A stretch of 64,000 nt of DNA from Escherichia phage UE-S1. The position numbers and the translations under genes are program-made. The notes beneath the pieces are model-generated. The model made no database searches, was not told the origin of the DNA, and saw only the letters and a list, made by a program, of their open reading frames with translations. Below, piece by piece: positions 1,097-26,510 of the stretch. The stretch lies in sequence record ON568341.1, one strand, 5' to 3'. Each line of letters opens with the position of its first letter. Positions within the stretch are counted from its first letter, which is position 1.

Positions 1097-1124
1097 AAGC
1101 CCATTAGTTAACGCTGGTGGGCTT
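1097..1124 (+). terminator. terminator-like hairpin (AAGCCCA / TGGGCTT)
   Basis: 7-bp stem, weak T-run. Confidence 0.3.
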
Positions 1125-1196
1125 TAATCATTTACCCTATACAATGCCAGTACTAAACCGTTTATCTCATTAGAATGCATTACAGGACGTTTAACA

Positions 1197-2424: not shown

Positions 2425-2637
2425 ATGCAAGGTCAACTAATCGTTCGTAAATGGTCTGATACTAACGAAAAACCGTGGGATGTACAATACATCGCCCCAA
2501 ATGGTGAATCCAGATATCAACCAGGTGTAACGCATAGTACTGAGCAATTCGCCGCCGCTCATCGCGAACGTCTGTTACAATCAATGCAGCACGGTTCCGG
2601 TGAAAAATTCATTCAGGATCATTGGCTGAAAGATTAA
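2425..2637 (+). CDS. hypothetical small early protein (70 aa)
   Basis: promoter, hairpin and RBS AAGAGGAAAG upstream. Confidence 0.6.
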   Translation: MQGQLIVRKWSDTNEKPWDVQYIAPNGESRYQPGVTHSTEQFAAAHRERLLQSMQHGSGEKFIQDHWLKD

Positions 2638-2644
2638 AAAGTAC

Positions 2645-2672
2645 TTGCACAGTACTGAATAAAGTGTATAAT
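2645..2672 (+). promoter_or_regulatory. sigma70-type promoter (TTGCAC-16-TATAAT)
   Basis: TTGCAC 2645-2650, TATAAT 2667-2672. Confidence 0.55.
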
Positions 2673-2723
2673 GTTTTATATCGGAAGGGGAATAGTTCCC
2701 CTCCTAACAAAGAGGAAAGTATA

Positions 2724-2897
2724 ATGGTCCAGGTAGAATTAACAGTACTGAAAGATCTGTTTTATCGGATTGGTACTACTGGCGAATATCCGAAGGGTGA
2801 TAATGCAAAACTTTACGTATCACTCGACTTATGGCAACGCGAACAATTAGCAACGGCCTGGCGTAAAGGCAAAGCAGATAGCGAGGTGAAAGCATGA
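2724..2897 (+). CDS. hypothetical small protein (57 aa)
   Basis: ATG 2724 after RBS; track ORF 2622-2897 would run through the promoter, so the internal start is preferred. Confidence 0.5.
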   Translation: MVQVELTVLKDLFYRIGTTGEYPKGDNAKLYVSLDLWQREQLATAWRKGKADSEVKA

Positions 2898-3043
2898 AAG
2901 AATTCTTATTTGAAGTAGTGTTTCAAGGTGTCGGTAATAACCAACTGATTCGAACAAGTGGTTATAATGTTAACCAGGCATGGAATAACATTAAACAAAT
3001 GTACCCGAACGCTATCACATATCGCAACCCGAAAGAAGTTTAA
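2894..3043 (+). CDS. hypothetical small protein (49 aa)
   Basis: ATGA overlap with upstream stop; not in track (below 60 aa). Confidence 0.4.
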   Translation: MKEFLFEVVFQGVGNNQLIRTSGYNVNQAWNNIKQMYPNAITYRNPKEV

Positions 3044-3052
3044 AAATAATTG

Positions 3053-3093
3053 AAAAAGGGATTGACTCCGGTCAGTCCCTTTGCTATTATATA
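3053..3093 (+). promoter_or_regulatory. repeated promoter-like dyad element, copy 1 (TTGACT-17-TATTAT)
   Basis: AAAAAGGGATTGACTCCGGTCAGTCCCTTTGCTATTATATA; exact copies at 6060 and 8319. Confidence 0.55.
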
Positions 3094-3191
3094 CGCATAG
3101 AAACAAATTAGCCCACCGGGTGCATAAATGTATCTATTGTTTGCTGGTGGCTAGTACTATCAAGTACTGAAAACTATTTTTAAAAAAGTAC

Positions 3192-3219
3192 TTGCAAAGT
3201 ATCACGATAAGCGTATAAT
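3192..3219 (+). promoter_or_regulatory. sigma70-type promoter (TTGCAA-16-TATAAT)
   Basis: TTGCAA 3192-3197, TATAAT 3214-3219; structured ORF-less segment downstream. Confidence 0.5.
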
Positions 3220-3307
3220 GTTTTACATCAGGACGGGGAACGAAATAAGTAACCCCGTTAAGTAGTCCAGGAGTAAGACATACGAAAAACTCCCCTGATA
3301 AAATAGT

Positions 3308-3335
3308 TTGACAATAGAAAGTAAACGAGTATAAT
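3308..3335 (+). promoter_or_regulatory. sigma70-type promoter (TTGACA-16-TATAAT)
   Basis: TTGACA 3308-3313, TATAAT 3330-3335. Confidence 0.55.
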
Positions 3336-3368
3336 ACTTACATCAACCACTGATAAGGAAACATTAAA

Positions 3369-3644
3369 ATGCGGACTTTACTTACAGCTAACGAAATCGA
3401 GCAAGTACTGACTACTAATCTGGAACAATGGAAACGTGAAGCAGATATCCAGGCGGTTCAATGCCTTAACGATAAGTTAACGCCAGATGACTTAAGCACG
3501 ATTGTTGATCCACAATTTTATGAAGATATTCACGACACGTCTTTAAGCGTCGAGGATGTACTTGATAAGCACTACATTGATACTGATTTACATGTTTACG
3601 GTCGTAAAAACTTTATCACTATTCACGACATTTACAATACTTAA
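3369..3644 (+). CDS. hypothetical early protein (91 aa)
   Basis: promoter and RBS upstream. Confidence 0.6.
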   Translation: MRTLLTANEIEQVLTTNLEQWKREADIQAVQCLNDKLTPDDLSTIVDPQFYEDIHDTSLSVEDVLDKHYIDTDLHVYGRKNFITIHDIYNT

Positions 3645-3647
3645 GTA

Positions 3648-3675
3648 TTGACAAAGTATCTTAGTACTGTATAAT
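3648..3675 (+). promoter_or_regulatory. sigma70-type promoter (TTGACA-16-TATAAT)
   Basis: TTGACA 3648-3653, TATAAT 3670-3675. Confidence 0.55.
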
Positions 3676-3731
3676 AGTTTACATCAAGCGAGGGGAATGG
3701 TTCCCCTCCTAACAAAGAGAGAGAAATAAAA

Positions 3732-4055
3732 ATGGCTATGATCCTTACCCAGAAAGTAGAACTGAAAATTGTAACCTCCTTTGACATTAAAGTTAATCGG
3801 TGGACTGATAGCCACGGCAATACTTACCACTCCTGCTACGTGTCCGCATTGATTGGTGATCGCTGGGAAGACCTGGGACACGAAACCTTTACATACGGTT
3901 ACGGCACACAAGGCGAGTACACGGGTTTAGAAATCATTAAGGAAACTGTAATAGGTTTCAACCCGAAAGAGAAAGTACTACACAGAATTGAGAAAGAGAT
4001 CAACAAAGAAATTACAGTTCGCTACTACGATGTAAAACGTAAGAAAGACATGTAA
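3732..4055 (+). CDS. hypothetical early protein (107 aa)
   Basis: promoter, GGGGAATGGTTCCCC hairpin, RBS. Confidence 0.6.
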   Translation: MAMILTQKVELKIVTSFDIKVNRWTDSHGNTYHSCYVSALIGDRWEDLGHETFTYGYGTQGEYTGLEIIKETVIGFNPKEKVLHRIEKEINKEITVRYYDVKRKKDM

Positions 4056-4077
4056 TAGAATCCATTTAAAGTACTAT

Positions 4078-4106
4078 TTGACATTGCCCAGATAGTACTT
4101 TATAAT
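4078..4106 (+). promoter_or_regulatory. sigma70-type promoter (TTGACA-17-TATAAT)
   Basis: TTGACA 4078-4083, TATAAT 4101-4106. Confidence 0.55.
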
Positions 4107-4150
4107 AGACTCTAACTTGTAGTACTAACTCAACTAATAGGATGTATACC

Positions 4151-4546
4151 ATGATTACTAAATTCTACGCTACCCGTGAAGCTGCCCGTATTGTTGCACG
4201 CGAGGAAGGAGCAGCATTTAAAGACATGGGCAAAGATGCAACGAAAGGTCAACGCTGGGCCGTACAGTTCAAAGAAATCTCTGATATTGTGAATTCACCT
4301 GAGCCAGTACTGACAGCAGCAGAACTAAAACGAGCGGATATGCTGGCGGCAATACTTGACGCACAAGATGAGTTTATCGCTGACTCTGATATCAAAGTAC
4401 AGGTAAACCACACCGCATGGACTCACGCGGATCACCTGGCAAACCTTAAGCGTCCAAGTGAACTGATTCGCAACCAGAAAGAGATCCGACATGATCGTAA
4501 GGGTAATCGTGTAACAGTATACAGTAAACGCCGCCAGGTTATCTAA
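4151..4546 (+). CDS. hypothetical protein (131 aa; alternative start 4142)
   Basis: AGGA RBS 9 nt upstream of ATG 4151; intrinsic terminator follows. Confidence 0.6.
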   Translation: MITKFYATREAARIVAREEGAAFKDMGKDATKGQRWAVQFKEISDIVNSPEPVLTAAELKRADMLAAILDAQDEFIADSDIKVQVNHTAWTHADHLANLKRPSELIRNQKEIRHDRKGNRVTVYSKRRQVI

Positions 4547-4568
4547 TAACTTGCAGTACTAACAACAC

Positions 4569-4593
4569 GGCGGGATCAGTTCCCGCCTTTTTT
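4569..4593 (+). terminator. rho-independent terminator
   Basis: GGCGGGA / TCCCGCC stem followed by TTTTTT. Confidence 0.7.
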
Positions 4594-4607
4594 ATAGGAC
4601 AAACAAA

Positions 4608-4862
4608 ATGATTAAGGTTCAACTATATAAAGATAACATCTTACGGGTACACTATAAAGCACCTCAGAGAATCATCACAAAGGCCGTACAGCTTGCTAAT
4701 GAGTTTATTAATGGTAACCTATTACCTAGGAAGTTAAGCAACGGAAAACTGCGTGTAATCGACGTGGACACTAACAACAGGATAGTAATCGAGAACACAG
4801 GAAAAATAAACCTATATGAACACCAACAATACAATAAGAAAATAAAACTAATATCACGTTGA
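4608..4862 (+). CDS. hypothetical protein (84 aa)
   Basis: RBS GGACAAACAAA upstream. Confidence 0.5.
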   Translation: MIKVQLYKDNILRVHYKAPQRIITKAVQLANEFINGNLLPRKLSNGKLRVIDVDTNNRIVIENTGKINLYEHQQYNKKIKLISR

Positions 4863-4887
4863 CAGTACTCAAATGTTTTAGTATTAT
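4859..4887 (+). promoter_or_regulatory. sigma70-type promoter (TTGACA-17-TATTAT), duplicated unit A
   Basis: 60-bp promoter/5-prime UTR block nearly identical to 5135-5191. Confidence 0.5.
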
Positions 4888-4915
4888 GTACACATACCAA
4901 CACGGGAGAAACAAA

Positions 4916-5134
4916 ATGAAATTATCTAAAATCGAAAAGAAAACTATTGATGAAGCAGTTAAGCACGGTTATACCTTTCGTAATGATTCACATTTTACCA
5001 ATTTTCAACAGGGGTATCGTACTATTAAAAAACTAATTGACAAAGGTTTATTAGTTGAAGTCAATAATGGGAACGGTATCGAGTATCAGCCAACCCAAGA
5101 CGCATTATCTTTAAAGAAATATAATATTATCTAA
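4916..5134 (+). CDS. hypothetical protein (72 aa)
   Basis: ATG 4916 after GGGAGAAACAAA RBS; track ORF from 4859 includes the promoter. Confidence 0.55.
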   Translation: MKLSKIEKKTIDEAVKHGYTFRNDSHFTNFQQGYRTIKKLIDKGLLVEVNNGNGIEYQPTQDALSLKKYNII

Positions 5135-5163
5135 TTGACAGTACTCAAATGTTTTAGTACTAT
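5135..5163 (+). promoter_or_regulatory. sigma70-type promoter (TTGACA-17-TACTAT), duplicated unit B
   Basis: copy of 4859-4887 block. Confidence 0.5.
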
Positions 5164-5191
5164 ATGTACATACCAACACGGGGGAAACAAA

Positions 5192-5434
5192 ATGATTACT
5201 TTAGAAAAACGTATCAAAGAAACTACATCGCTGGTGGAACTGTTAACAGTACTCAAATGTAAAACAACACCATTTAGCACGCCGGACTTTATTAATATGG
5301 TTGATGTTAATGGTCGCTATCGTATCACGGTCGAACAAGGAGCGGCGAAAGTATTCAGTACTAAAAACACGAAGGAAGTGATCCACGCCGTTAATGTTAA
5401 AAAAGTAGTTGCCATTGATAGTAAAGTACTGTAA
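5192..5434 (+). CDS. hypothetical protein (80 aa)
   Basis: ATG 5192 after GGGGGAAACAAA RBS. Confidence 0.55.
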   Translation: MITLEKRIKETTSLVELLTVLKCKTTPFSTPDFINMVDVNGRYRITVEQGAAKVFSTKNTKEVIHAVNVKKVVAIDSKVL

Positions 5435-5465
5435 TATAGTTTCATTAACTCAAGGAGAACATGCA

Positions 5466-6050
5466 ATGCGTAATTATACTAAATTCATCCGTACACTGTC
5501 AGAAATGGAAACCAACAAAGAGATCCTTTCAGCTTGTCGGTTAGCTGGCCTGGAGATCATCGGTGCTGGTTCTTCCCGTATAGTTTTCGCTTTAAATGAT
5601 CGGTTAGTGATTAAGGTCGCGAATTGTGATGCGGGTGTAGAACAAAATGAAACTGAATGTAAGGTATGGAATTTTTTAGACTATGACCGCCCTCAGTTGA
5701 AACAGTACTTTGCAAAGGTGCATATGCATTTATGCGATCCTGATAATATGTTTATCGTTATGGATCGGTTGAGTACTGCAAGCAAAGGTAGTGTGAAGCA
5801 CGTAAACGCGTGCAATGAATTAAAGTACAATATTAAACGTAATGCAATCGAACGCCATCACCGCTTTGCTGATGCACTACAACACGTCGATGATACATTA
5901 TCAACACTAACGATAAGAGATATCAGAAAACAGAATATCGGCCAGGATCGTAATGGCCTTATTAAAGTACTTGATTACGGTTTAACCTGCAATATCTGGA
6001 ATCAGTACTATAAAAAGCGTGATGTGGCAGCAAGTAAGGTAACACGATAA
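5466..6050 (+). CDS. putative minimal Hanks-type protein kinase-like protein
   Basis: GAGSSRIV (Gly loop), VIK (lysine), IRDIRKQNIG (catalytic loop), LDYG (DFG-like) in canonical order; RBS AAGGAGAA. Confidence 0.45.
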   Translation: MRNYTKFIRTLSEMETNKEILSACRLAGLEIIGAGSSRIVFALNDRLVIKVANCDAGVEQNETECKVWNFLDYDRPQLKQYFAKVHMHLCDPDNMFIVMDRLSTASKGSVKHVNACNELKYNIKRNAIERHHRFADALQHVDDTLSTLTIRDIRKQNIGQDRNGLIKVLDYGLTCNIWNQYYKKRDVAASKVTR

Positions 6051-6059
6051 AAAAGATTA

Positions 6060-6100
6060 AAAAAGGGATTGACTCCGGTCAGTCCCTTTGCTATTATATA
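6060..6100 (+). promoter_or_regulatory. repeated promoter-like dyad element, copy 2
   Basis: TTGACT 6069-6074, TATTAT 6092-6097. Confidence 0.55.
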
Positions 6101-6191
6101 TCCATTGAGAGATAACTCACTGACCCATAGGGTGCGGAAGTGTATCTATTATATAAGTATTCAGTACTGAAAACTATTTTTAAAAAAGTAC

Positions 6192-6219
6192 TTGCAAACT
6201 ATCTCAATGAGCGTATAAT
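6192..6219 (+). promoter_or_regulatory. sigma70-type promoter (TTGCAA-16-TATAAT)
   Basis: copy of promoter at 3192-3219. Confidence 0.55.
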
Positions 6220-6274
6220 GTTTTATATCGAGAGGGGGAAATGGTTCTCCCTAGTACTAAAAGGAATCAAGACG

Positions 6275-6496
6275 ATGACTACTATGACCTGCGTTCACGC
6301 TTCAAATCTTCTGAATGATGCAGCATTTAAAGCAGGTGAAGAATATCAATGCTATCGGGATGAAAATAAAAAAGTTTTTGTAGTTGATAATAATGGTTTC
6401 CATATTGAATTACAATCCGGCTTCACTGGTTTAAATGGTAAATCAGTATGGGGCGTACAGGATGATAAAGGTACATATCATTTTAAACGTAATTAA
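6275..6496 (+). CDS. hypothetical protein (73 aa)
   Basis: ATG 6275 after hairpin and AAAAGGAA RBS; track start 6140 lies upstream of the promoter. Confidence 0.5.
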   Translation: MTTMTCVHASNLLNDAAFKAGEEYQCYRDENKKVFVVDNNGFHIELQSGFTGLNGKSVWGVQDDKGTYHFKRN

Positions 6497-6499
6497 GTA

Positions 6500-6527
6500 T
6501 TGACAAAGTATATCAGTACTGTATAAT
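6500..6527 (+). promoter_or_regulatory. sigma70-type promoter (TTGACA-16-TATAAT)
   Basis: TTGACA 6500-6505, TATAAT 6522-6527. Confidence 0.55.
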
Positions 6528-6577
6528 AGTTTACATCAAGGGGAGAATGGTTCTCCCCACTAAAAGGAAACAAAATT

Positions 6578-6850
6578 ATGTCCAGCTACTCCGCTACTAT
6601 GATCATTAAAGATATGAACGGTAATCCTACTTCTGCTGGTGGATCATTTGGAAACATTAATTTAGATGGTCGGTTATCCATGCAATCAGCCATCGATGCA
6701 GCGAAAGAAGTTTTTAAGAATGAATGTACTGTTAGTAAGCTGGATTATATGGGTTTCGCTATCGAGAAAACTACTCGTTTTGTGAACTACAAAAATCCAC
6801 TGATGATTGATACTAACCTGAAAGCTAACGAAGTGGGGTACTTATTATGA
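6578..6850 (+). CDS. hypothetical protein (90 aa)
   Basis: promoter, hairpin, RBS. Confidence 0.6.
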   Translation: MSSYSATMIIKDMNGNPTSAGGSFGNINLDGRLSMQSAIDAAKEVFKNECTVSKLDYMGFAIEKTTRFVNYKNPLMIDTNLKANEVGYLL

Positions 6851-7038
6851 CAGTAGAAGAAGTAAAAAAAGTACTGGCAGTACTACGATATCATAATCAT
6901 TGCAAGGTGAAGAATGATCCTGATTATCTTGATTCATCCCTGGAGGAAGACACCTTGAACGCTATAAGCCATATGCAGACATTAGCAAAGCGTATGACTG
7001 AAAAGAACATGCCGGACTATATCGGAAATAAAATTTAA
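6847..7038 (+). CDS. hypothetical protein (63 aa)
   Basis: ATGA overlap with upstream gene. Confidence 0.5.
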   Translation: MTVEEVKKVLAVLRYHNHCKVKNDPDYLDSSLEEDTLNAISHMQTLAKRMTEKNMPDYIGNKI

Positions 7039-7045
7039 AAAGTAC

Positions 7046-7073
7046 TTGCATTGTAGTTAGATTAACGTATAAT
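7046..7073 (+). promoter_or_regulatory. sigma70-type promoter (TTGCAT-16-TATAAT)
   Basis: TTGCAT 7046-7051, TATAAT 7068-7073. Confidence 0.5.
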
Positions 7074-7124
7074 GTTTTATATCGAGAGGGGAAATGGTTT
7101 CCCCTCAAGTCCAGGAGATACACC

Positions 7125-7388
7125 ATGAACACTATCGAAATCACTATCAATGCACACGTATACGACAACGTAGTACTGCAAACTACTATGACCGCCAATG
7201 ATACCAGTACTTTGCGGAATACTGTTATTAGTGCTGTATGTGCCGCTATCGGTGATGTATCCCTGGAAAATTCAGAACACATCAACAACGGTTTCACTAT
7301 GTGCAAACGTGATAACGCAAAACATATCATCGTGGAAGGTTACGGCGGTGTAGAATTTAATGTTTATATGAAAAAAGTACTTGCATAA
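7125..7388 (+). CDS. hypothetical protein (87 aa)
   Basis: promoter, hairpin, RBS CAGGAGA. Confidence 0.6.
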   Translation: MNTIEITINAHVYDNVVLQTTMTANDTSTLRNTVISAVCAAIGDVSLENSEHINNGFTMCKRDNAKHIIVEGYGGVEFNVYMKKVLA

Positions 7389-7408
7389 TAACTAAAACAA
7401 AGTATAAT
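7381..7408 (+). promoter_or_regulatory. sigma70-type promoter (TTGCAT-16-TATAAT)
   Basis: overlaps 3-prime end of preceding gene. Confidence 0.5.
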
Positions 7409-7455
7409 GTTTTGCATAGGGGGAGATATCCTCCCCCACTAAAAGGAGTAATAAA

Positions 7456-7680
7456 ATGGCTAACTTTGATGAACTGATGCGGGAAGTAGCTTACCTGGCA
7501 GAAGAGAAGAAATCATTCGATTCTATCTATAACACCGCTCACCGTGATTCAGTACTGGCATGTAACCAGGATCAAAAAGATGAACTAATCGCCACCTATC
7601 ATGAAGCATGGAAGTACTACCGACAATGGGAGAAAGAAGAAAGTGAGTCTACCATTGACGGCCTCAATAATCTAATCTAA
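7456..7680 (+). CDS. hypothetical protein (74 aa)
   Basis: promoter, GGGGGAGATATCCTCCCCC hairpin, RBS. Confidence 0.6.
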   Translation: MANFDELMREVAYLAEEKKSFDSIYNTAHRDSVLACNQDQKDELIATYHEAWKYYRQWEKEESESTIDGLNNLI

Positions 7681-7699
7681 AAGTTTTATTTCAGTACTA

Positions 7700-7728
7700 T
7701 TGACATAGCTTGATAGTACTGATGTAAT
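7700..7728 (+). promoter_or_regulatory. sigma70-type promoter (TTGACA-17-TGTAAT)
   Basis: TTGACA 7700-7705. Confidence 0.5.
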
Positions 7729-7756
7729 AACTTTACTAACTACAAGGGGAAACATA

Positions 7757-8014
7757 ATGGATCAATTCACACAATATCGGGTAAATCCTCAAGCTATGGC
7801 CTACGTAGAAGACCATAAAACGTTACCAGTACTGCAACCAGTTAAAGGCCGTATCTATCGTGGCCTTGCCTGGGATACGGCCCAGGATGGATATAAAACC
7901 GTCGCCGTGGGTATGTATTGCGGTGATGGTGAATGGTTTGATCCAAATAATCCGGTATCCATTGACAGTACTGAAAAAATGAAATGGGCCGACTACATCG
8001 AAGATATTTCATAA
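7757..8014 (+). CDS. hypothetical protein (85 aa)
   Basis: promoter and RBS upstream. Confidence 0.6.
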   Translation: MDQFTQYRVNPQAMAYVEDHKTLPVLQPVKGRIYRGLAWDTAQDGYKTVAVGMYCGDGEWFDPNNPVSIDSTEKMKWADYIEDIS

Positions 8015-8021
8015 AAACTAT

Positions 8022-8049
8022 TTGACAGTACTAACCAGTAATGTATAAT
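8022..8049 (+). promoter_or_regulatory. sigma70-type promoter (TTGACA-16-TATAAT)
   Basis: TTGACA 8022-8027, TATAAT 8044-8049. Confidence 0.55.
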
Positions 8050-8104
8050 GTTTTACATAGAGCGGGGGAATAGTTCTCCCGCCAATAGTTTGGAGTAAAA
8101 CATT

Positions 8105-8305
8105 ATGTCTATCGCTATCGCCCTGGTTGAAGTACTGAAAGAAGCTAAAGCCAACCTTATCGACGTAAAGATCCAGGAACTACAAAACGGCTTAATCGGC
8201 TGTACTTGTACCGCTGGTGGAGCGGCAGACTATCGAGAACACGAATCACTCGAATCACTGGTTCGGTATCTTACCATGATCGTTGATGATTGGAGAATCA
8301 TCTAA
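8105..8305 (+). CDS. hypothetical protein (66 aa)
   Basis: promoter, hairpin, RBS. Confidence 0.55.
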   Translation: MSIAIALVEVLKEAKANLIDVKIQELQNGLIGCTCTAGGAADYREHESLESLVRYLTMIVDDWRII

Positions 8306-8318
8306 CAAAAAAGAATAA

Positions 8319-8359
8319 AAAAAGGGATTGACTCCGGTCAGTCCCTTTGCTATTATATA
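8319..8359 (+). promoter_or_regulatory. repeated promoter-like dyad element, copy 3
   Basis: TTGACT 8328-8333, TATTAT 8351-8356. Confidence 0.55.
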
Positions 8360-8468
8360 CGCATAGACAAAAACTAGCCCACAGGGTGCATAGGTGTATC
8401 CAAAATATATAGTTAATAACGGTGAGTAACTATCTGCTGGTGGAACTAAAACTATTAATAAAAAAGTA

Positions 8469-8497
8469 TTGACAAAGTATATCAGTACTGCAATAAT
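8469..8497 (+). promoter_or_regulatory. sigma70-type promoter (TTGACA-17-AATAAT)
   Basis: TTGACA 8469-8474; weaker -10. Confidence 0.45.
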
Positions 8498-8550
8498 GTA
8501 TCTCGTAGGGCGGCAATGGTGCGACGGCCCACAAAGTTAGGAGATTCACC

Positions 8551-8883
8551 ATGAGTACTTCAATCGCTATCGTTAAAGCTTTCATCCGTACTAATGTTTC
8601 CTCTGTATTCATCGACGGCCTCGACCGTAACGTAGAATACTCAATCATTATCGCACAAACGGCAAACGGTTCTCGGTACATCCTGAATGATAGTGAAGCA
8701 AATCACTACTACTTCACTAAAGCCACTGGCTTTAAACGCATCGATGCTGATGTAGTATACGCTAAGATGAATAAGCTGGTAGACAAGATTAACGCGAAAG
8801 GTACTATCGATTTACAGTACTGGACCGAAACCGATCCAGAATATGGATCTCACCGCTACCTGAATCCAGGTATCAAAATGTAA
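8551..8883 (+). CDS. hypothetical protein (110 aa)
   Basis: RBS AGGAGA upstream. Confidence 0.6.
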   Translation: MSTSIAIVKAFIRTNVSSVFIDGLDRNVEYSIIIAQTANGSRYILNDSEANHYYFTKATGFKRIDADVVYAKMNKLVDKINAKGTIDLQYWTETDPEYGSHRYLNPGIKM

Positions 8884-8890
8884 AAAGTAC

Positions 8891-8918
8891 TTGCATAGTA
8901 CTTAGATTCATGTATAAT
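8891..8918 (+). promoter_or_regulatory. sigma70-type promoter (TTGCAT-16-TATAAT)
   Basis: TTGCAT 8891-8896, TATAAT 8913-8918. Confidence 0.5.
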
Positions 8919-8972
8919 GTTTTACATAGAGAGGGGGAAATGGTTCTCCCTCCTAAATTAAGGAGTTTTATC

Positions 8973-9374
8973 ATGACCTTCTCAATCACTTCCTTCGCTG
9001 ACGTTTTAGTACTGGCCCGGACTTTTGGTAAAGCTGGCCTTGAGCACGCTGTAAGTAATGGTCATATGCACCCTGAATATTGCCGCATCATCGGTAGCTG
9101 CAAACGTTGGGCCGTGTCCCGTAACATTGAGATTGAAAACTTCAATGACGGCAACAACGAATATACAGTTGATGCAGTATTCGAAGCCGTTGATCTCGGC
9201 GGTATCTATAACACTAACCTGAATGATGTGCGTATCGTTCGCACGGGGTTCGGTGCTTATGATGTATCTATCCGTGAAGCTATGGACAAGGGATACATTA
9301 GCAAGGACCAGTTAGCTTACATCATGCAGCAAACTAAGGAACGTAACGAAGCACGTACTATCTTAGGGTTGTAA
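8973..9374 (+). CDS. hypothetical protein (133 aa)
   Basis: ATG 8973 after AAGGAG RBS; track start 8910 lies in the promoter. Confidence 0.6.
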   Translation: MTFSITSFADVLVLARTFGKAGLEHAVSNGHMHPEYCRIIGSCKRWAVSRNIEIENFNDGNNEYTVDAVFEAVDLGGIYNTNLNDVRIVRTGFGAYDVSIREAMDKGYISKDQLAYIMQQTKERNEARTILGL

Positions 9375-9652: not shown

Positions 9653-9680
9653 TGCGTAAAAGGATTTAGTACTGATTCAG

Positions 9681-9747
9681 AAAAAAGTCAAGGCGTTTTT
9701 TAAATTATGCGTTAAAAAAATGCATAGGTAATCCCTTGACTTTTTTG
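9681..9747. promoter_or_regulatory. long inverted repeat at module boundary (13-bp arms AAAAAAGTCAAGG / CCTTGACTTTTTT)
   Basis: perfect arms ~40 bp apart, T-run after right arm; possible terminator of early unit. Confidence 0.4.
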
Positions 9748-9843
9748 AAATAAAAGGGATTGGACTATGGCAAAATGCGTAGGGGGCTAAAGGGCGGGTA
9801 ACCTTAGCGACTTCGTTAAAGGGGTATTACGAATAAAATGTTA

Positions 9844-9871
9844 TTGACTTTTTATATAAATCGTATAAAAT
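9844..9871 (+). promoter_or_regulatory. sigma70-type promoter (TTGACT-16-TAAAAT) for FamA array
   Basis: TTGACT 9844-9849; only clear promoter before a 6-kb run of overlapping genes. Confidence 0.45.
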
Positions 9872-26022: not shown

Positions 26023-26510
26023 TGTCATTGCAGAGTGCATTAAAAGAGGCAAAGAAGATTCATGAGTACATGATTATGGTACAGGAAGGTTTAGTGCCTG
26101 GTGTATACAAAACATCAGATACGGAATTCTTTGTTCTGGACAGGGATGATTATGATGAGTCCGAGGTACATGCTGAAACATTAGTTCTGCACACTGATAC
26201 TGGTGATAGTGACAACTGTGAATATCATATGTACAATCAATACATTAGTTATTGCCGTAATGAAGATATTACCATCTACAACACAGATATTGATGCTGAT
26301 GACACTATCATTCCATATTCAGTTCTGGAAGGTCCGTGGGATAGTGAAGAGTATTACTTTCAGAATAGTACTATCTACAGTGAAGAAGAACTGGATGTTA
26401 TTGTGATTATGTGGTACTTTAAAAGTATTGACTCCAGTAGTTTCTATTTTGATTATGAATATGTAGAGAATACAGTAGGAGAAGGTAATGTCATTACAAA
26501 GTGCTCTTGA
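26022..26510 (+). CDS. FamB paralog, subfamily B2
   Basis: motif EEYYFQNSTIYS; near-duplicate of 24637-25110. Confidence 0.65.
   Translation: MSLQSALKEAKKIHEYMIMVQEGLVPGVYKTSDTEFFVLDRDDYDESEVHAETLVLHTDTGDSDNCEYHMYNQYISYCRNEDITIYNTDIDADDTIIPYSVLEGPWDSEEYYFQNSTIYSEEELDVIVIMWYFKSIDSSSFYFDYEYVENTVGEGNVITKCS

What the first reader, a model, noticed from the sequence alone, without database searches (positions are those of the whole stretch)
3053..3368. Triplicated promoter-like dyad element followed by conserved ORF-less segments (candidate small RNAs)
The 41-bp sequence AAAAAGGGATTGACTCCGGTCAGTCCCTTTGCTATTATATA occurs at 3053, 6060 and 8319, with a degenerate fourth copy near 9751. It has exact promoter geometry (TTGACT, 17 bp, TATTAT) and its spacer is a dyad that could fold as RNA or bind a dimer. 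Downstream of each copy is ~100 nt without an ORF sharing a core (CCCAC.GGGTGCATA..TGTATC ... CTGCTGGTGG), then a second strong promoter. After copy 1 that second promoter (3192-3219) also drives a hairpin-containing ~80-nt segment with no ORF before a third promoter. These long multi-promoter intergenic regions stand out in a tightly packed genome.
Basis: partly seen in the sequence, partly recalled or inferred. Interest (0 to 1): 0.6.

Follow-up and report, generated by a model that had tools for sequence, protein, structure and literature searches.

The report
Terminator-promoter cassette launching conserved phage RNA
Three identical 41-bp elements in the early region of an E. coli jumbo phage each end the upstream gene's transcript and immediately start a new one, and that new transcript opens with a short non-coding RNA motif that is conserved in many copies across this whole phage group but has no described family or known function.

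Summary
The 41-mer occurs exactly three times (3053, 6060, 8319); none is expected by chance. The "fourth copy" near 9751 is not a copy. The window comes from an Asteriusvirus-like (121Q/PBECO4) jumbo phage, and its first ~10 kb lies in the direct terminal repeat.

Each unit has two separable modules.
- **Module A** is a composite intrinsic terminator and sigma-70 promoter. The stem covaries in 34 distinct copies from related phages. Its G-U pairs work only as plus-strand RNA. TTGAC and the -10 are fixed. This is a known kind: PeSL cassettes of T4-like phages and "promoter-coupled terminators".
- **Module B** (3096-3139, 6103-6151, 8362-8405) is a ~45-50-nt non-coding RNA motif starting at +1. 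I found 87 distinct copies in at least ten related phages. Of 90 distinct promoter contexts, 88 sit on a strong promoter. It has a covarying 5' hairpin and a near-invariant RCCCAYNGGGUGC core. No Rfam family, host match or paper describes it.

In relatives, module B also occurs as stand-alone units antisense to the genes, with their own promoter and terminator. That favours an RNA with its own function; the mechanism is unresolved.

The shared "CTGCTGGTGG" is the Chi site, strongly enriched in one orientation.

The parts
3053..3093 (+). Module A, copy 1: composite terminator/promoter. Hairpin 3055-3066/3071-3082 with loop TCCG; -35 TTGACT 3062-3067; TG 3082-3083; -10 TATTAT 3085-3090; predicted start A3097.
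6060..6100 (+). Module A, copy 2 (hairpin 6062-6089; -35 6069-6074; -10 6092-6097). It follows the kinase-like ORF 5409-6050.
8319..8359 (+). Module A, copy 3 (hairpin 8321-8348; -35 8328-8333; -10 8351-8356). It follows ORF 8105-8305. In phage BF17 the homology break lies at 8308, directly at this copy.
3096..3139 (+). Module B, copy 1, short form without the SL1 stem: CAU AGAAACAAAUUA GCCCACCGGGU GC AUAAA UGUAUC UAUUG.
   Evidence: covariance model R1, 37.9 bits, E 5e-9
6103..6151 (+). Module B, copy 2, long form: SL1 UGAG-AGAUAA-CUCA, then ACCCAUAGGGU GC GGAAG UGUAUC.
   Evidence: R1, 68.8 bits, E 8e-19; alignment A2
8362..8405 (+). Module B, copy 3, short form.
   Evidence: R1, 38.7 bits, E 3e-9
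3143..3150 (+). Chi octamer GCTGGTGG. This is the 'CTGCTGGTGG' of the finding. Not part of module B.
8436..8443 (+). Chi octamer GCTGGTGG after copy 3.
3192..3219 (+). Second promoter after copy 1 (TTGCAA, 16 bp, TATAAT), a member of the ordinary promoter-plus-stem-loop cassette family.
6192..6219 (+). Second promoter after copy 2. It drives a 5' stem-loop, a Shine-Dalgarno sequence and the ORF from 6275.
8469..8497 (+). Second promoter after copy 3 (TTGACA, 17 bp, AATAAT with TG). It drives the ORF from 8551.
3226..3307 (+). ORF-less, stably folding transcript segment from the second promoter, holding an AGGAG with no start codon. Probably a cassette that lost its ORF; an RNA gene is not excluded.
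3308..3335 (+). Third promoter (TTGACA, 16 bp, TATAAT) for ORF 3369-3644.

Best explanation
Each unit is a two-part early regulatory cassette in the direct terminal repeat of a Rak2-like jumbo phage.

**Module A is one sequence with two jobs.**
- Read as RNA from the upstream gene, it folds into a 9-12-bp hairpin with a UNCG loop and a U-rich tail. This stops incoming host RNA polymerase about 10 bp before the next start site.
- Read as DNA, the 5' arm supplies the -35 (TTGAC). The U-tract runs into an extended -10 (TGnTATTAT). Host sigma-70 polymerase therefore re-initiates at A3097, A6104 and A8363.

**Module B is what the new transcript begins with, at +1.**
- It consists of an optional 4-5-bp hairpin with an A-rich loop, then the near-invariant RCCCAYNGGGUGC, 5 variable nt and UNYRUC.
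- The GGGU(G) can pair either with the preceding CCC or with the following YRUC.
- I commit to module B working as RNA: an abundant, multi-copy, very early non-coding RNA tag or small RNA, recognised through its invariant core by a protein or RNA partner, and acting independently of the downstream gene.
- That downstream gene has its own promoter 40-100 bp further on.

**What is shown and what is inferred.**
- Shown: the repeat, the geometry, covariation of both hairpins, strand specificity, obligatory promoter linkage, clade-wide conservation, and stand-alone promoter-to-terminator units in relatives.
- Inferred: actual termination and initiation, the RNA's 3' end in this phage, action in trans, and the partner.

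The repeats also serve as recombination junctions for gene-cassette gain and loss.
For: **Module A**
- Three exact copies, each placed directly after a stop codon.
- 34 distinct homologous hairpins: 97% of cells paired, 4 pairs with compensatory changes, TTGAC invariant, 62 G-U cells.
- + strand RNA folds at -19.5 kcal/mol against -14.1 for the - strand.
- Annotated as an ARNold terminator in phage G17.
- The geometry matches PeSLs (PMC2839356, PMC4122927) and promoter-coupled terminators (bioRxiv 10.64898/2026.08.19.745784: -35 in the stem, T-tract before the -10, about 10 bp from termination site to start site).

**Module B**
- blastn aligns only this non-coding stretch between genera, at 70-85% identity.
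- The ungapped 15-sequence alignment has SL1 100% paired, with both-sided changes at all 4 pairs.
- The covariance model finds 98 hits, 87 distinct. SL1 covaries, CCC/GGG is nearly invariant, and there are 2 CCU..AGG compensatory cells.
- 88 of 90 distinct copies start at +1 of a promoter matching at least 9 of 12 positions, against 1.7% of random positions.
- The modules are separable: hairpin promoters occur without module B, and module B occurs behind ordinary promoters.
- 15 copies lie antisense to the genes in their own intergenic gaps. Seven of them have an intrinsic terminator 6-36 nt downstream (five at 19-24 nt) and none has a promoter. Of 45 sense copies, 29 are followed by a second promoter.
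- Indel junctions between genomes fall at the repeats.
- A distant relative, PA5oct, has highly transcribed ncRNAs in its terminal repeat by RNA-seq (PMC7318152).
Against: - There are no transcript data for any phage carrying the motif.
- In this window no terminator lies between module B and the next promoter. A discrete small RNA is therefore not demonstrated here.
- Single-sequence folding of module B is no better than shuffled sequence (z -0.6 to -1.3).
- Two of the three window copies lack the SL1 stem.
- The invariant core gives almost no covariation, so an RNA reading and a DNA reading of it cannot be separated.
- No target or partner was found. The only complementary sites in the window are the copies themselves.
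- The terminator's U-tract is interrupted (UUUGCUAUUAU).
Confidence: 0.55

Rival explanations
1. Module B is a cis-acting elongation or antitermination tag, functionally like HK022 put, lambda nut or an ops-type pause site. Polymerases that start at the hairpin promoter acquire the nascent RNA (or a factor bound to it) and then read through the many terminators of the early region. Polymerases from ordinary promoters stop at them.
For: - Module B always lies at the very 5' end of the transcript, directly after a sigma-70 promoter. putL sits in the same position after PL (PMC9378689).
- Terminators lie downstream, including the next copies of module A and 4569-4587.
- Sense copies are never followed by their own terminator. 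They run into the next gene, which also has a separate promoter.
- SL1 loops are A-rich, as boxB loops are.
Against: - put RNA is about 70 nt with two long stems (PMC9378689). Module B has only 3-5-bp helices, and its folding energy is not distinguishable from shuffles.
- Antisense copies are followed 6-36 nt later by an intrinsic terminator, which a terminator-resistant polymerase would ignore.
- Convergent pairs 12-60 nt apart in CBB and GAP32 would collide.
- The SL1 stem is dispensable: short forms lack it.
- There is no boxA or ops match. The ops-like GCGGTAG occurs only in the variable 5-nt segment of a few copies.
Confidence: 0.2
2. The units are only promoter-terminator cassettes (PeSL-type). 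Their extended similarity, module B included, is kept by gene conversion and duplication between repeats. In this view module B has no function of its own beyond being a leader and a recombination substrate.
For: - The 41 bp are 100% identical in three copies while the flanks differ, and copies 1 and 3 are 90% identical over 93 nt. This fits homogenisation.
- Cassette indels between Asteriusvirus genomes fall at promoter repeats. The BF17 junction lies exactly at copy 3.
- PeSLs are documented recombination sites (PMC2839356).
Against: - Within one genome the copies differ widely in SL1 stem sequence and in the variable segment, yet keep the 13-mer core and the pairing.
- The core is conserved across phages of six host genera whose flanking DNA is not alignable.
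- Stand-alone antisense copies with their own promoter and terminator are not needed for any gene's expression.
Confidence: 0.12
3. The invariant core is read as DNA. It would be an operator or roadblock site, or a non-template-strand hairpin, for a phage or host protein that controls the early promoters. The RNA would be incidental.
For: - ACCC-N3-GGGT is a short inverted repeat.
- The core is always promoter-associated.
- Convergent pairs form larger inverted repeats in relatives.
- The core shows almost no covariation.
Against: - SL1 covariation right at +1 needs a single-stranded nucleic acid.
- The motif is asymmetric beyond 4+4 bp and always has the same orientation relative to the promoter.
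- 39 of 87 copies have GCCC...GGGT, which breaks the DNA palindrome but keeps a G-U pair.
- The distance from the start site varies by 5-8 bp between short and long forms.
Confidence: 0.08
4. The 41-bp element works only as a terminator of the upstream gene, and the promoter resemblance is accidental. This is the refutation case the first reader named.
For: It is predicted as a terminator by two scans.
Against: - TTGAC is invariant in 34 of 34 distinct hairpins, while the complementary arm drifts.
- The -10 hexamer sits at a fixed 17-bp spacing with a TG extension.
- A conserved C-A start lies 7 nt after it.
- The same downstream motif follows ordinary, non-hairpin promoters at the same distance.
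Confidence: 0.03

Closest known systems
PeSL (promoter-early stem-loop) cassettes of T4-like phages (Arbiol et al. 2010, PMC2839356; Comeau et al. 2014, PMC4122927)
   Same: - A composite of a strong sigma-70-type early promoter and a stem-loop with G-T pairs that overlaps the promoter and acts as a terminator.
- It begins at the stop codon of the upstream gene in an A/T-rich stretch.
- It is densely repeated among small ORFan genes.
- It marks cassette indel junctions between related genomes.
   Different: - PeSLs end in a Shine-Dalgarno sequence and the start codon of the next gene. Here the promoter launches a conserved ~45-50-nt non-coding motif, and the next gene has a second promoter of its own.
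- The phage group is Rak2-like jumbo phages, and the cassettes lie in the direct terminal repeat.
- Mini-circle formation was not tested.
Promoter-coupled terminators of bacteria (Fletcher et al., bioRxiv 10.64898/2026.08.19.745784)
   Same: - The -35 lies inside the terminator stem-loop.
- The T-tract lies immediately upstream of the -10.
- A purine start is preceded by a pyrimidine.
- The termination site is expected about 10 bp upstream of the start site.
- The element lies between tandem genes.
   Different: - That class was described from mapped RNA ends in bacterial chromosomes. Here it is inferred from sequence and covariation in a phage.
- Here it occurs as an exactly repeated 41-bp unit.
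HK022 put RNA and lambda nut sites (processive antitermination; PMC9378689)
   Same: A structured nascent RNA placed directly downstream of early sigma-70 promoters of a phage, ahead of terminator-containing early operons.
   Different: - put is about 70 nt with two long stems and a triplex. nut has boxA plus a boxB hairpin.
- Module B has only 3-5-bp helices and no boxA.
- Module B also occurs as terminated antisense units.
- Membership is not supported. A functional analogy is not excluded.
ncRNA001 and ncRNA002 in the terminal repeat of jumbo phage PA5oct (PMC7318152)
   Same: ORF-less, highly transcribed regions in the long terminal repeat of a distantly related jumbo phage that relies on host RNA polymerase.
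   Different: - There is no sequence or structure relationship: the covariance model finds nothing in the PA5oct repeat.
- The PA5oct RNAs are 236 and 451 nt and single-copy.

Membership tests
PeSL composite promoter-terminator cassette | Near-consensus sigma-70 promoter with an A/T-rich upstream region | tested here: met
   TTGACT, 17 bp, TATTAT with TG, preceded by an A-tract. Conserved in 34 homologues.
PeSL composite promoter-terminator cassette | Stable stem-loop (with G-T pairs) overlapping the promoter, placed after the upstream stop codon | tested here: met
   12-bp hairpin spanning the -35 and the spacer, 10-14 nt after the stop codon. It covaries.
PeSL composite promoter-terminator cassette | 3' end formed by the Shine-Dalgarno sequence and start codon of the downstream gene | tested here: not met
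   All three copies are followed by module B and a second promoter. There is no Shine-Dalgarno sequence or ORF for 180-280 nt. Some hairpin promoters in relatives do meet this feature (L009:9508, L010:9057).
PeSL composite promoter-terminator cassette | Located in plastic regions of small ORFan genes and at indel junctions | tested here: met
PeSL composite promoter-terminator cassette | Measured promoter and terminator activity; mini-circles | not testable with these tools
   Needs reporter assays and inverse PCR.
Promoter-coupled terminator | -35 coincides with the stem-loop, and the T-tract abuts the -10 | tested here: met
   -35 at 3062-3067 lies inside the 5' arm. TTT 3080-3082 runs into TG-C-TATTAT.
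Promoter-coupled terminator | RNA 3' end about 10 bp upstream of the RNA 5' end of the next unit | not testable with these tools
   Predicted 3' ends at about 3086-3091 and start at 3097. Needs Term-seq and Cappable-seq.
Intrinsic (Rho-independent) terminator | G+C-rich stem followed by a U-tract | tested here: inconclusive
   The stem is good, at -19.5 kcal/mol. The tail UUUGCUAUUAU has 7 U in 11 but is interrupted. It is picked up by the scan and by ARNold in G17.
Any Rfam 15 family | Covariance-model score at or above the gathering threshold | tested here: not met
   No hit in the window or in four relatives' early regions. The best E-value hits in 2900-3400 are 0.7-10 and unrelated.
HK022 put RNA | About 70 nt with two long stem-loops immediately downstream of an early promoter | tested here: not met
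   The position is met. The architecture is not: only 3-5-bp helices. Sequence comparison was not done because no put model was at hand.
Lambda-type nut site | boxA (CGCUCUUUA-like) plus a boxB hairpin with a GNRA-like loop | tested here: not met
   There is no boxA. SL1 has A-rich 6-8-nt loops, but its stem is absent in two of the three window copies. The boxA and boxB consensus sequences are from my own knowledge.
RfaH ops element | Invariant GGCGGTAG in the non-template strand | tested here: not met
   GCGGTAG-like strings occur only in a few copies, inside the variable 5-nt segment. The ops consensus is from my own knowledge.
Terminated trans-acting small RNA gene | Own promoter and own Rho-independent terminator enclosing an ORF-less RNA | tested here: inconclusive
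   Met by antisense copies in RaK2, 7t3, Munch and fENko-Kae01. Not met by the three window copies, which have no terminator before the second promoter.
Chi site (for the CTGCTGGTGG sub-motif) | Exact 5'-GCTGGTGG-3' | tested here: met
   3143-3150 and 8436-8443. Eight on the + strand against about 0.2 expected.

The most novel reading that the evidence does not exclude
Module B is a previously undescribed class of phage RNA made by host polymerase in the first minutes of infection from many promoters in the terminal repeat. It would act in one of two ways. Either it is a protein-free or factor-loading tag that makes the polymerase terminator-resistant, a small functional analogue of put or nut. 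Or it is an abundant decoy that neutralises a host RNA-binding defence or turnover factor. Its invariant GGGUG would be the hinge of a two-state switch between the CCC and YRUC partners.
Probability: 0.25. Interest if true: 0.8.

Novelty: new variant of a known kind. Interest (0 to 1): 0.55.

Why it matters
Rak2-like jumbo phages (Asteriusvirus, Alcyoneusvirus, Mimasvirus and relatives) are being developed for therapy. Their roughly 20-kb terminal repeats are annotated as strings of hypothetical proteins.

This analysis gives three things.
- It shows that the long "empty" intergenic regions there are organised. They hold dual-use terminator-promoter elements of the PeSL or promoter-coupled type, extending that architecture to another phage lineage.
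- It defines, with coordinates, a covariance model and about 90 instances, a clade-wide promoter-proximal RNA motif that no database or paper I could search describes.
- It offers a directly testable candidate for an early phage non-coding RNA or elongation-control element.

Two side observations may matter for how the incoming linear DNA survives and is regulated: one-orientation Chi clustering in the repeat, and the ten-fold excess of AGTACT around promoters.

Tried and rejected
- **Fourth copy at ~9751.** Rejected; it is only an 11-14-nt resemblance.
- **Rfam.** Nothing, both at gathering thresholds and at permissive E-values.
- **Host mimicry.** No match of the core region in 5,426 complete E. 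coli genomes. The degenerate core pattern across 185,579 bacterial species genomes gave 109 scattered single hits. My estimate of chance expectation is in the low hundreds, and there is no enterobacterial locus.
- **IMG/VR scan.** Only ~350-kb Rak2-like contigs and two fragments.
- **PA5oct terminal-repeat ncRNAs.** Unrelated.
- **Antisense targets of the core in the window.** Only the copies themselves.
- **Mini-ORF on the minus strand** (ATG CAC CCG GTG GGC TAA = MHPVG, copies 1 and 3). Rejected because copy 2 has no ATG there (read).
- **Plus-strand mechanical ORFs** 3081-3170 and 6069-6170. They have TTG starts, no Shine-Dalgarno sequence, and no counterpart in copy 3.
- **DnaA box** (TTATNCACA against TAACCCACA). 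Rejected because a third of the copies have CAT instead of CAC.
- **CsrA-type GGA loop.** Rejected because the AUAAA variants lack GGA.
- **ops.** Rejected, see the membership test.
- **CRISPR-repeat mimic.** Considered from memory of the I-E and I-F repeats. There is no resemblance. It was not formally tested.
- **Literature.** No paper held the core sequence in a phage context or described the motif. The Sharanji paper has no transcript data.
Full report
**What the window is.** Megablast of 2600-9000 finds 82 phage records, the best at 93-97% identity. All of the well-covered ones are E. coli jumbo phages of the 121Q/PBECO4/phAPEC6 group (Asteriusvirus, ~350 kb). In phage vB_Ec-M-J the annotated direct terminal repeat (1-21,525) covers the homologous region. 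Repeats are also annotated over the homologous places in CBB, Muenster and fENko-Kae01. By offset, about the first 10 kb of the window lies inside the terminal repeat. That stretch is a dense array of small + strand ORFs. They include a DksA/TraR zinc-finger protein (1394-1651), a GNAT acetyltransferase (1716-2072) and a weak kinase match (5409-6050).

**Checking the observation.** The 41-mer is present exactly three times, at 3053, 6060 and 8319. Nothing else matches within three mismatches, and no match appeared in shuffles.
- The promoter scan reports TTGACT, 17 bp, TATTAT with a TG extension at each copy. The terminator scan reports the same sequence as a 12-pair hairpin.
- Each copy begins 10-14 nt after the stop codon of a + strand ORF.
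- Copies 1 and 3 stay 90% identical for 93 nt. Copy 2 shares the core with indels.
- A second promoter follows each copy (3192-3219, 6192-6219, 8469-8497).
- After copy 1 there is a further ORF-less segment and a third promoter at 3308-3335.
- The proposed fourth copy near 9751 is only AAAAGGGATTG(G)ACT at 9752-9766. It lacks the second arm, the -10 and the downstream core, and no search recovers it.
- A genuine fourth copy, with a diverged stem (GTGG/CCAT), lies just upstream of the window start in relatives (L003:3722-3820, L002:1954-2052).

**Module A, the dyad.**
- A blastn search with words of 11 bases using 3040-3200 hits 63 records. Among them are Klebsiella RaK2 and K64-1, Salmonella 7t3 and Munch, Cronobacter GAP32, Pectobacterium CBB, and Erwinia and Serratia phages. 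In the more distant of these only this non-coding stretch aligns, at 70-85%.
- I collected 34 distinct hairpin promoters from these genomes.
  - On the ungapped alignment the 11-pair helix is paired in 97% of cells. Four pairs show changes on both sides: GGGA/TCCC, GTGG/CCAT, GTAC/GTAC, GAGG/CCTC, AAGG/CCTT.
  - The 5' arm TTGAC is invariant. Its partner varies only by transitions that keep G-U or U-G pairs, in 62 of 374 cells.
  - These copies were selected for at least 8 of 9 pairs, so the percentage paired is biased. The covariation and the strand asymmetry are not.
- The G-U pairs become A-C mismatches on the other strand. In line with that, the + strand RNA folds at -19.5 kcal/mol (z -4.9) against -14.1 for the - strand.
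- The loop is UUCG or UCCG closed by C-G.
- The G17 genome record annotates exactly these three hairpins as ARNold terminators.

So the dyad is selected as a + strand RNA hairpin, that is, a terminator for the upstream gene. Its 5' arm and tail are at the same time selected as the -35 and an extended -10. The predicted termination zone (~3086-3091) lies 6-11 nt before the predicted start, A3097.

This architecture is known. PeSLs of T4-like phages are composite sigma-70 promoter and stem-loop terminator cassettes. They begin at the upstream stop codon, carry G-T pairs in the stem, and have measured promoter and terminator activity (PMC2839356, PMC4122927). A 2026 preprint describes "promoter-coupled terminators" in bacteria with the -35 in the stem, the T-tract abutting the -10, and about 10 bp between termination and start sites (10.64898/2026.08.19.745784).

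**Module B, the ORF-less segment.**
- An nhmmer profile of the three copies found 5-13 copies per ~20 kb of early region in every relative fetched. Some lacked the hairpin, and some lay on the strand opposite to the genes.
- Every instance of the core lies a fixed distance downstream of a sigma-70 promoter, whether hairpin-type or ordinary. Of 90 distinct upstream contexts, 88 have a promoter matching at least 9 of 12 positions whose -10 ends 5-6 nt before the conserved C-A. Only 1.7% of random positions in the same loci do. The motif therefore begins at +1.
- Its parts are:
  - a 4-5-bp hairpin (SL1) with an A-rich 6-8-nt loop (AGAUAA, GAGAAA, GCGAAA, AGAACAA), reduced to the loop-like GAAACAA in "short forms";
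  - a 2-4-nt linker;
  - RCCC-AYN-GGGU-GC;
  - five variable nucleotides;
  - UNYRUC, then UAU.
- On an ungapped alignment of 15 long forms, SL1 is paired in 60 of 60 cells and all four pairs change on both sides.
- A covariance model built from it finds exactly three copies in the 64-kb window, all on the + strand: 6103-6151 (68.8 bits), 8362-8405 (38.7 bits) and 3096-3139 (37.9 bits). The next hit has E = 0.6. Copies 1 and 3 are short forms and copy 2 is a long form.
- Over 19 sources the model gives 98 hits, 87 of them distinct.
  - SL1 again covaries at all four pairs.
  - CCC/GGG is nearly invariant, with two CCU..AGG compensatory cells.
  - The outer pair is A-U in 46 copies and G-U in 39.
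  - This alignment is fitted to the model, so it leans toward the structure.
- A second small helix, GGUG with YRUC, is paired in 337 of 347 cells. It shows only one-sided, wobble-compatible changes, and it excludes the first helix. The data do not decide between the two. A switch using GGGU(G) in both would explain why that strand never varies.
- Single-sequence folding energies are unremarkable (z -0.6 to -1.3). Conservation is mainly of sequence.

**Context of module B in relatives.**
- The modules are separable. Hairpin promoters are sometimes followed directly by a Shine-Dalgarno sequence and an ORF, as in a classic PeSL (L009:9508, L010:9057). Module B is often driven by ordinary promoters.
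- Of 45 distinct copies in gene orientation, 29 are followed within 20-60 nt by a second sigma-70 promoter that serves the next ORF.
- Of 15 copies antisense to the genes, each in its own ~200-nt intergenic gap, 7 are followed 6-36 nt later by an intrinsic terminator (five of them at 19-24 nt) and none by a promoter (crude scans).
- Examples are RaK2 L004:13335-13385(-) and 6267-6318(-), and the orthologous units in fENko-Kae01, Munch and 7t3. Each is a complete promoter, ~100-nt RNA and terminator gene.
- CBB, GAP32, RaK2 and fENko-Kae01 also have convergent pairs of the motif 12-60 nt apart.

These facts argue that the RNA has a role of its own and does not merely lead into the downstream gene. 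In this window, however, no terminator separates module B from the second promoter. Its 3' end here is unknown.

**Is it known?**
- There is no Rfam family at gathering thresholds in the window or in four relatives, and nothing meaningful at permissive thresholds.
- There is no match in complete E. coli genomes.
- The degenerate core pattern gives only scattered single hits in bacterial genomes, in unrelated taxa, at roughly the number expected by chance.
- In IMG/VR the pattern occurs only in ~350-kb Rak2-like contigs and two fragments.
- The model finds nothing in the terminal repeat of PA5oct, a distant relative whose repeat nevertheless holds two highly transcribed ncRNAs by RNA-seq (PMC7318152).
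- Searches of the paper library found no description of the motif.
- put RNA (PMC9378689) shares the position but not the architecture. nut, ops, the DnaA box and CsrA sites fail on defining features (see the membership table).

**Recombination role.** Comparison with WPEC3, G17, 121Q and BF17 shows gene-cassette indels at the promoter repeats.
- WPEC3 has 350 bp extra at window 2339 and about 270 bp extra at 3631-3738.
- G17 lacks 1669-2090.
- BF17 lacks 8018-8307, with homology resuming at 8308, the first base of the A-rich lead of copy 3.

Together with the perfect identity of the three 41-mers, this fits the PeSL model of repeat-mediated shuffling and homogenisation.

**The second ORF-less segment (3226-3307).** It folds stably (z -3.9) and contains AGGAG followed by ATA rather than ATG. 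It is 98-99% identical in 121Q, G17 and vB_Ec-M-J and absent elsewhere. The same gap exists in Turkey5. It looks like a promoter and stem-loop cassette that lost its ORF. With no divergent homologues this cannot be tested.

**Verdict.** The finding is real and better than chance. Its promoter-like dyad is a member of a known kind: the PeSL or promoter-coupled terminator. Its ORF-less downstream segment is a clade-wide, multi-copy, promoter-proximal RNA motif that appears undescribed. I favour an independent early non-coding RNA function (confidence 0.55 for the whole model). A put/nut-like elongation tag is the main rival (0.2). Transcript mapping and a terminator read-through assay would settle it.

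Noticed in passing
window 1113, 2244, 3143, 5230, 6635, 8213, 8436, 55587 (+ strand); 46952 (- strand): The E. coli Chi octamer GCTGGTGG occurs 8 times on the + strand, 7 of them in the first 8.5 kb (the terminal repeat), and once on the - strand. About 0.2 per strand is expected. In relatives it keeps the + strand orientation even inside antisense promoters. With this orientation Chi would be read by RecBCD entering from the right-hand end.
   Followed up: partly
whole window; e.g. 584-619, 845-889, 7693-7728: AGTACT occurs 204 times against ~21 expected, and CAGTACTG 47 times against 0.6. Copies sit just upstream of the -35 and -10 of most early promoters. A second dyad-promoter class (AGTACTAT-TGACATAGTTTG-ATAGTACT-GGCATAAT) lacks A/T tracts and looks like an operator for a dimeric regulator.
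   Followed up: partly
window 2348, 2640, 3192, 3648, 6192, 6500, 7040, 8022, 8885: Ordinary PeSL-like cassettes recur before most small ORFs: a near-consensus promoter, a 5' stem-loop such as GGGGAGAATGGTTCTCCCC, and a Shine-Dalgarno sequence. Cassette indels between Asteriusvirus genomes fall at these repeats.
   Followed up: partly
window 1098-1127: A terminator-like hairpin AAGCCCA...TGGGCTT follows ORF 947-1090 and carries a Chi site in its loop and 3' arm. The homologous position in G17 is annotated as an ARNold terminator.
   Followed up: no
window 26070-26154 and 24.9-26.9 kb: ARAGORN calls one 85-nt tRNA-Cys with anticodon ACA. It lies inside an array of ~450-bp-period paralogous repeats. 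The tRNA is unusual in length and anticodon and may be spurious.
   Followed up: no
window 10.0-15.2 kb: An array of small paralogous genes with a ~212-bp period shares GGAACAAACTATCAAGAA (13 or more copies). It lies just beyond the presumed end of the terminal repeat.
   Followed up: no
window 9653-9871: A 220-nt intergenic region near the inferred inner boundary of the terminal repeat. The G17 record end maps to about 9806 and the vB_Ec-M-J repeat end to about 10,570. It holds the inverted repeat AATCCCTT...AAGGGATT, which produced the false 'fourth copy'.
   Followed up: partly
L006:987-1035/1049-1097 and 3797-3845/3859-3907 (CBB); L008:3129-3177/3191-3239 (GAP32); L010:139-187/212-255: Convergent pairs of the RNA motif, each with its own promoter, face each other 12-60 nt apart. 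Their transcripts would be mutually complementary and could fold into stems of about 17 bp.
   Followed up: no
L009:9567-9995 (Hallingskeid), L007:1566-2063 (Munch), L010:7019-7273 (fENko-Kae01): Free-standing HNH or NUMOD-type endonuclease genes sit directly next to copies of the cassette in three relatives. In two of them the endonuclease gene lies between the RNA motif and the next gene.
   Followed up: no
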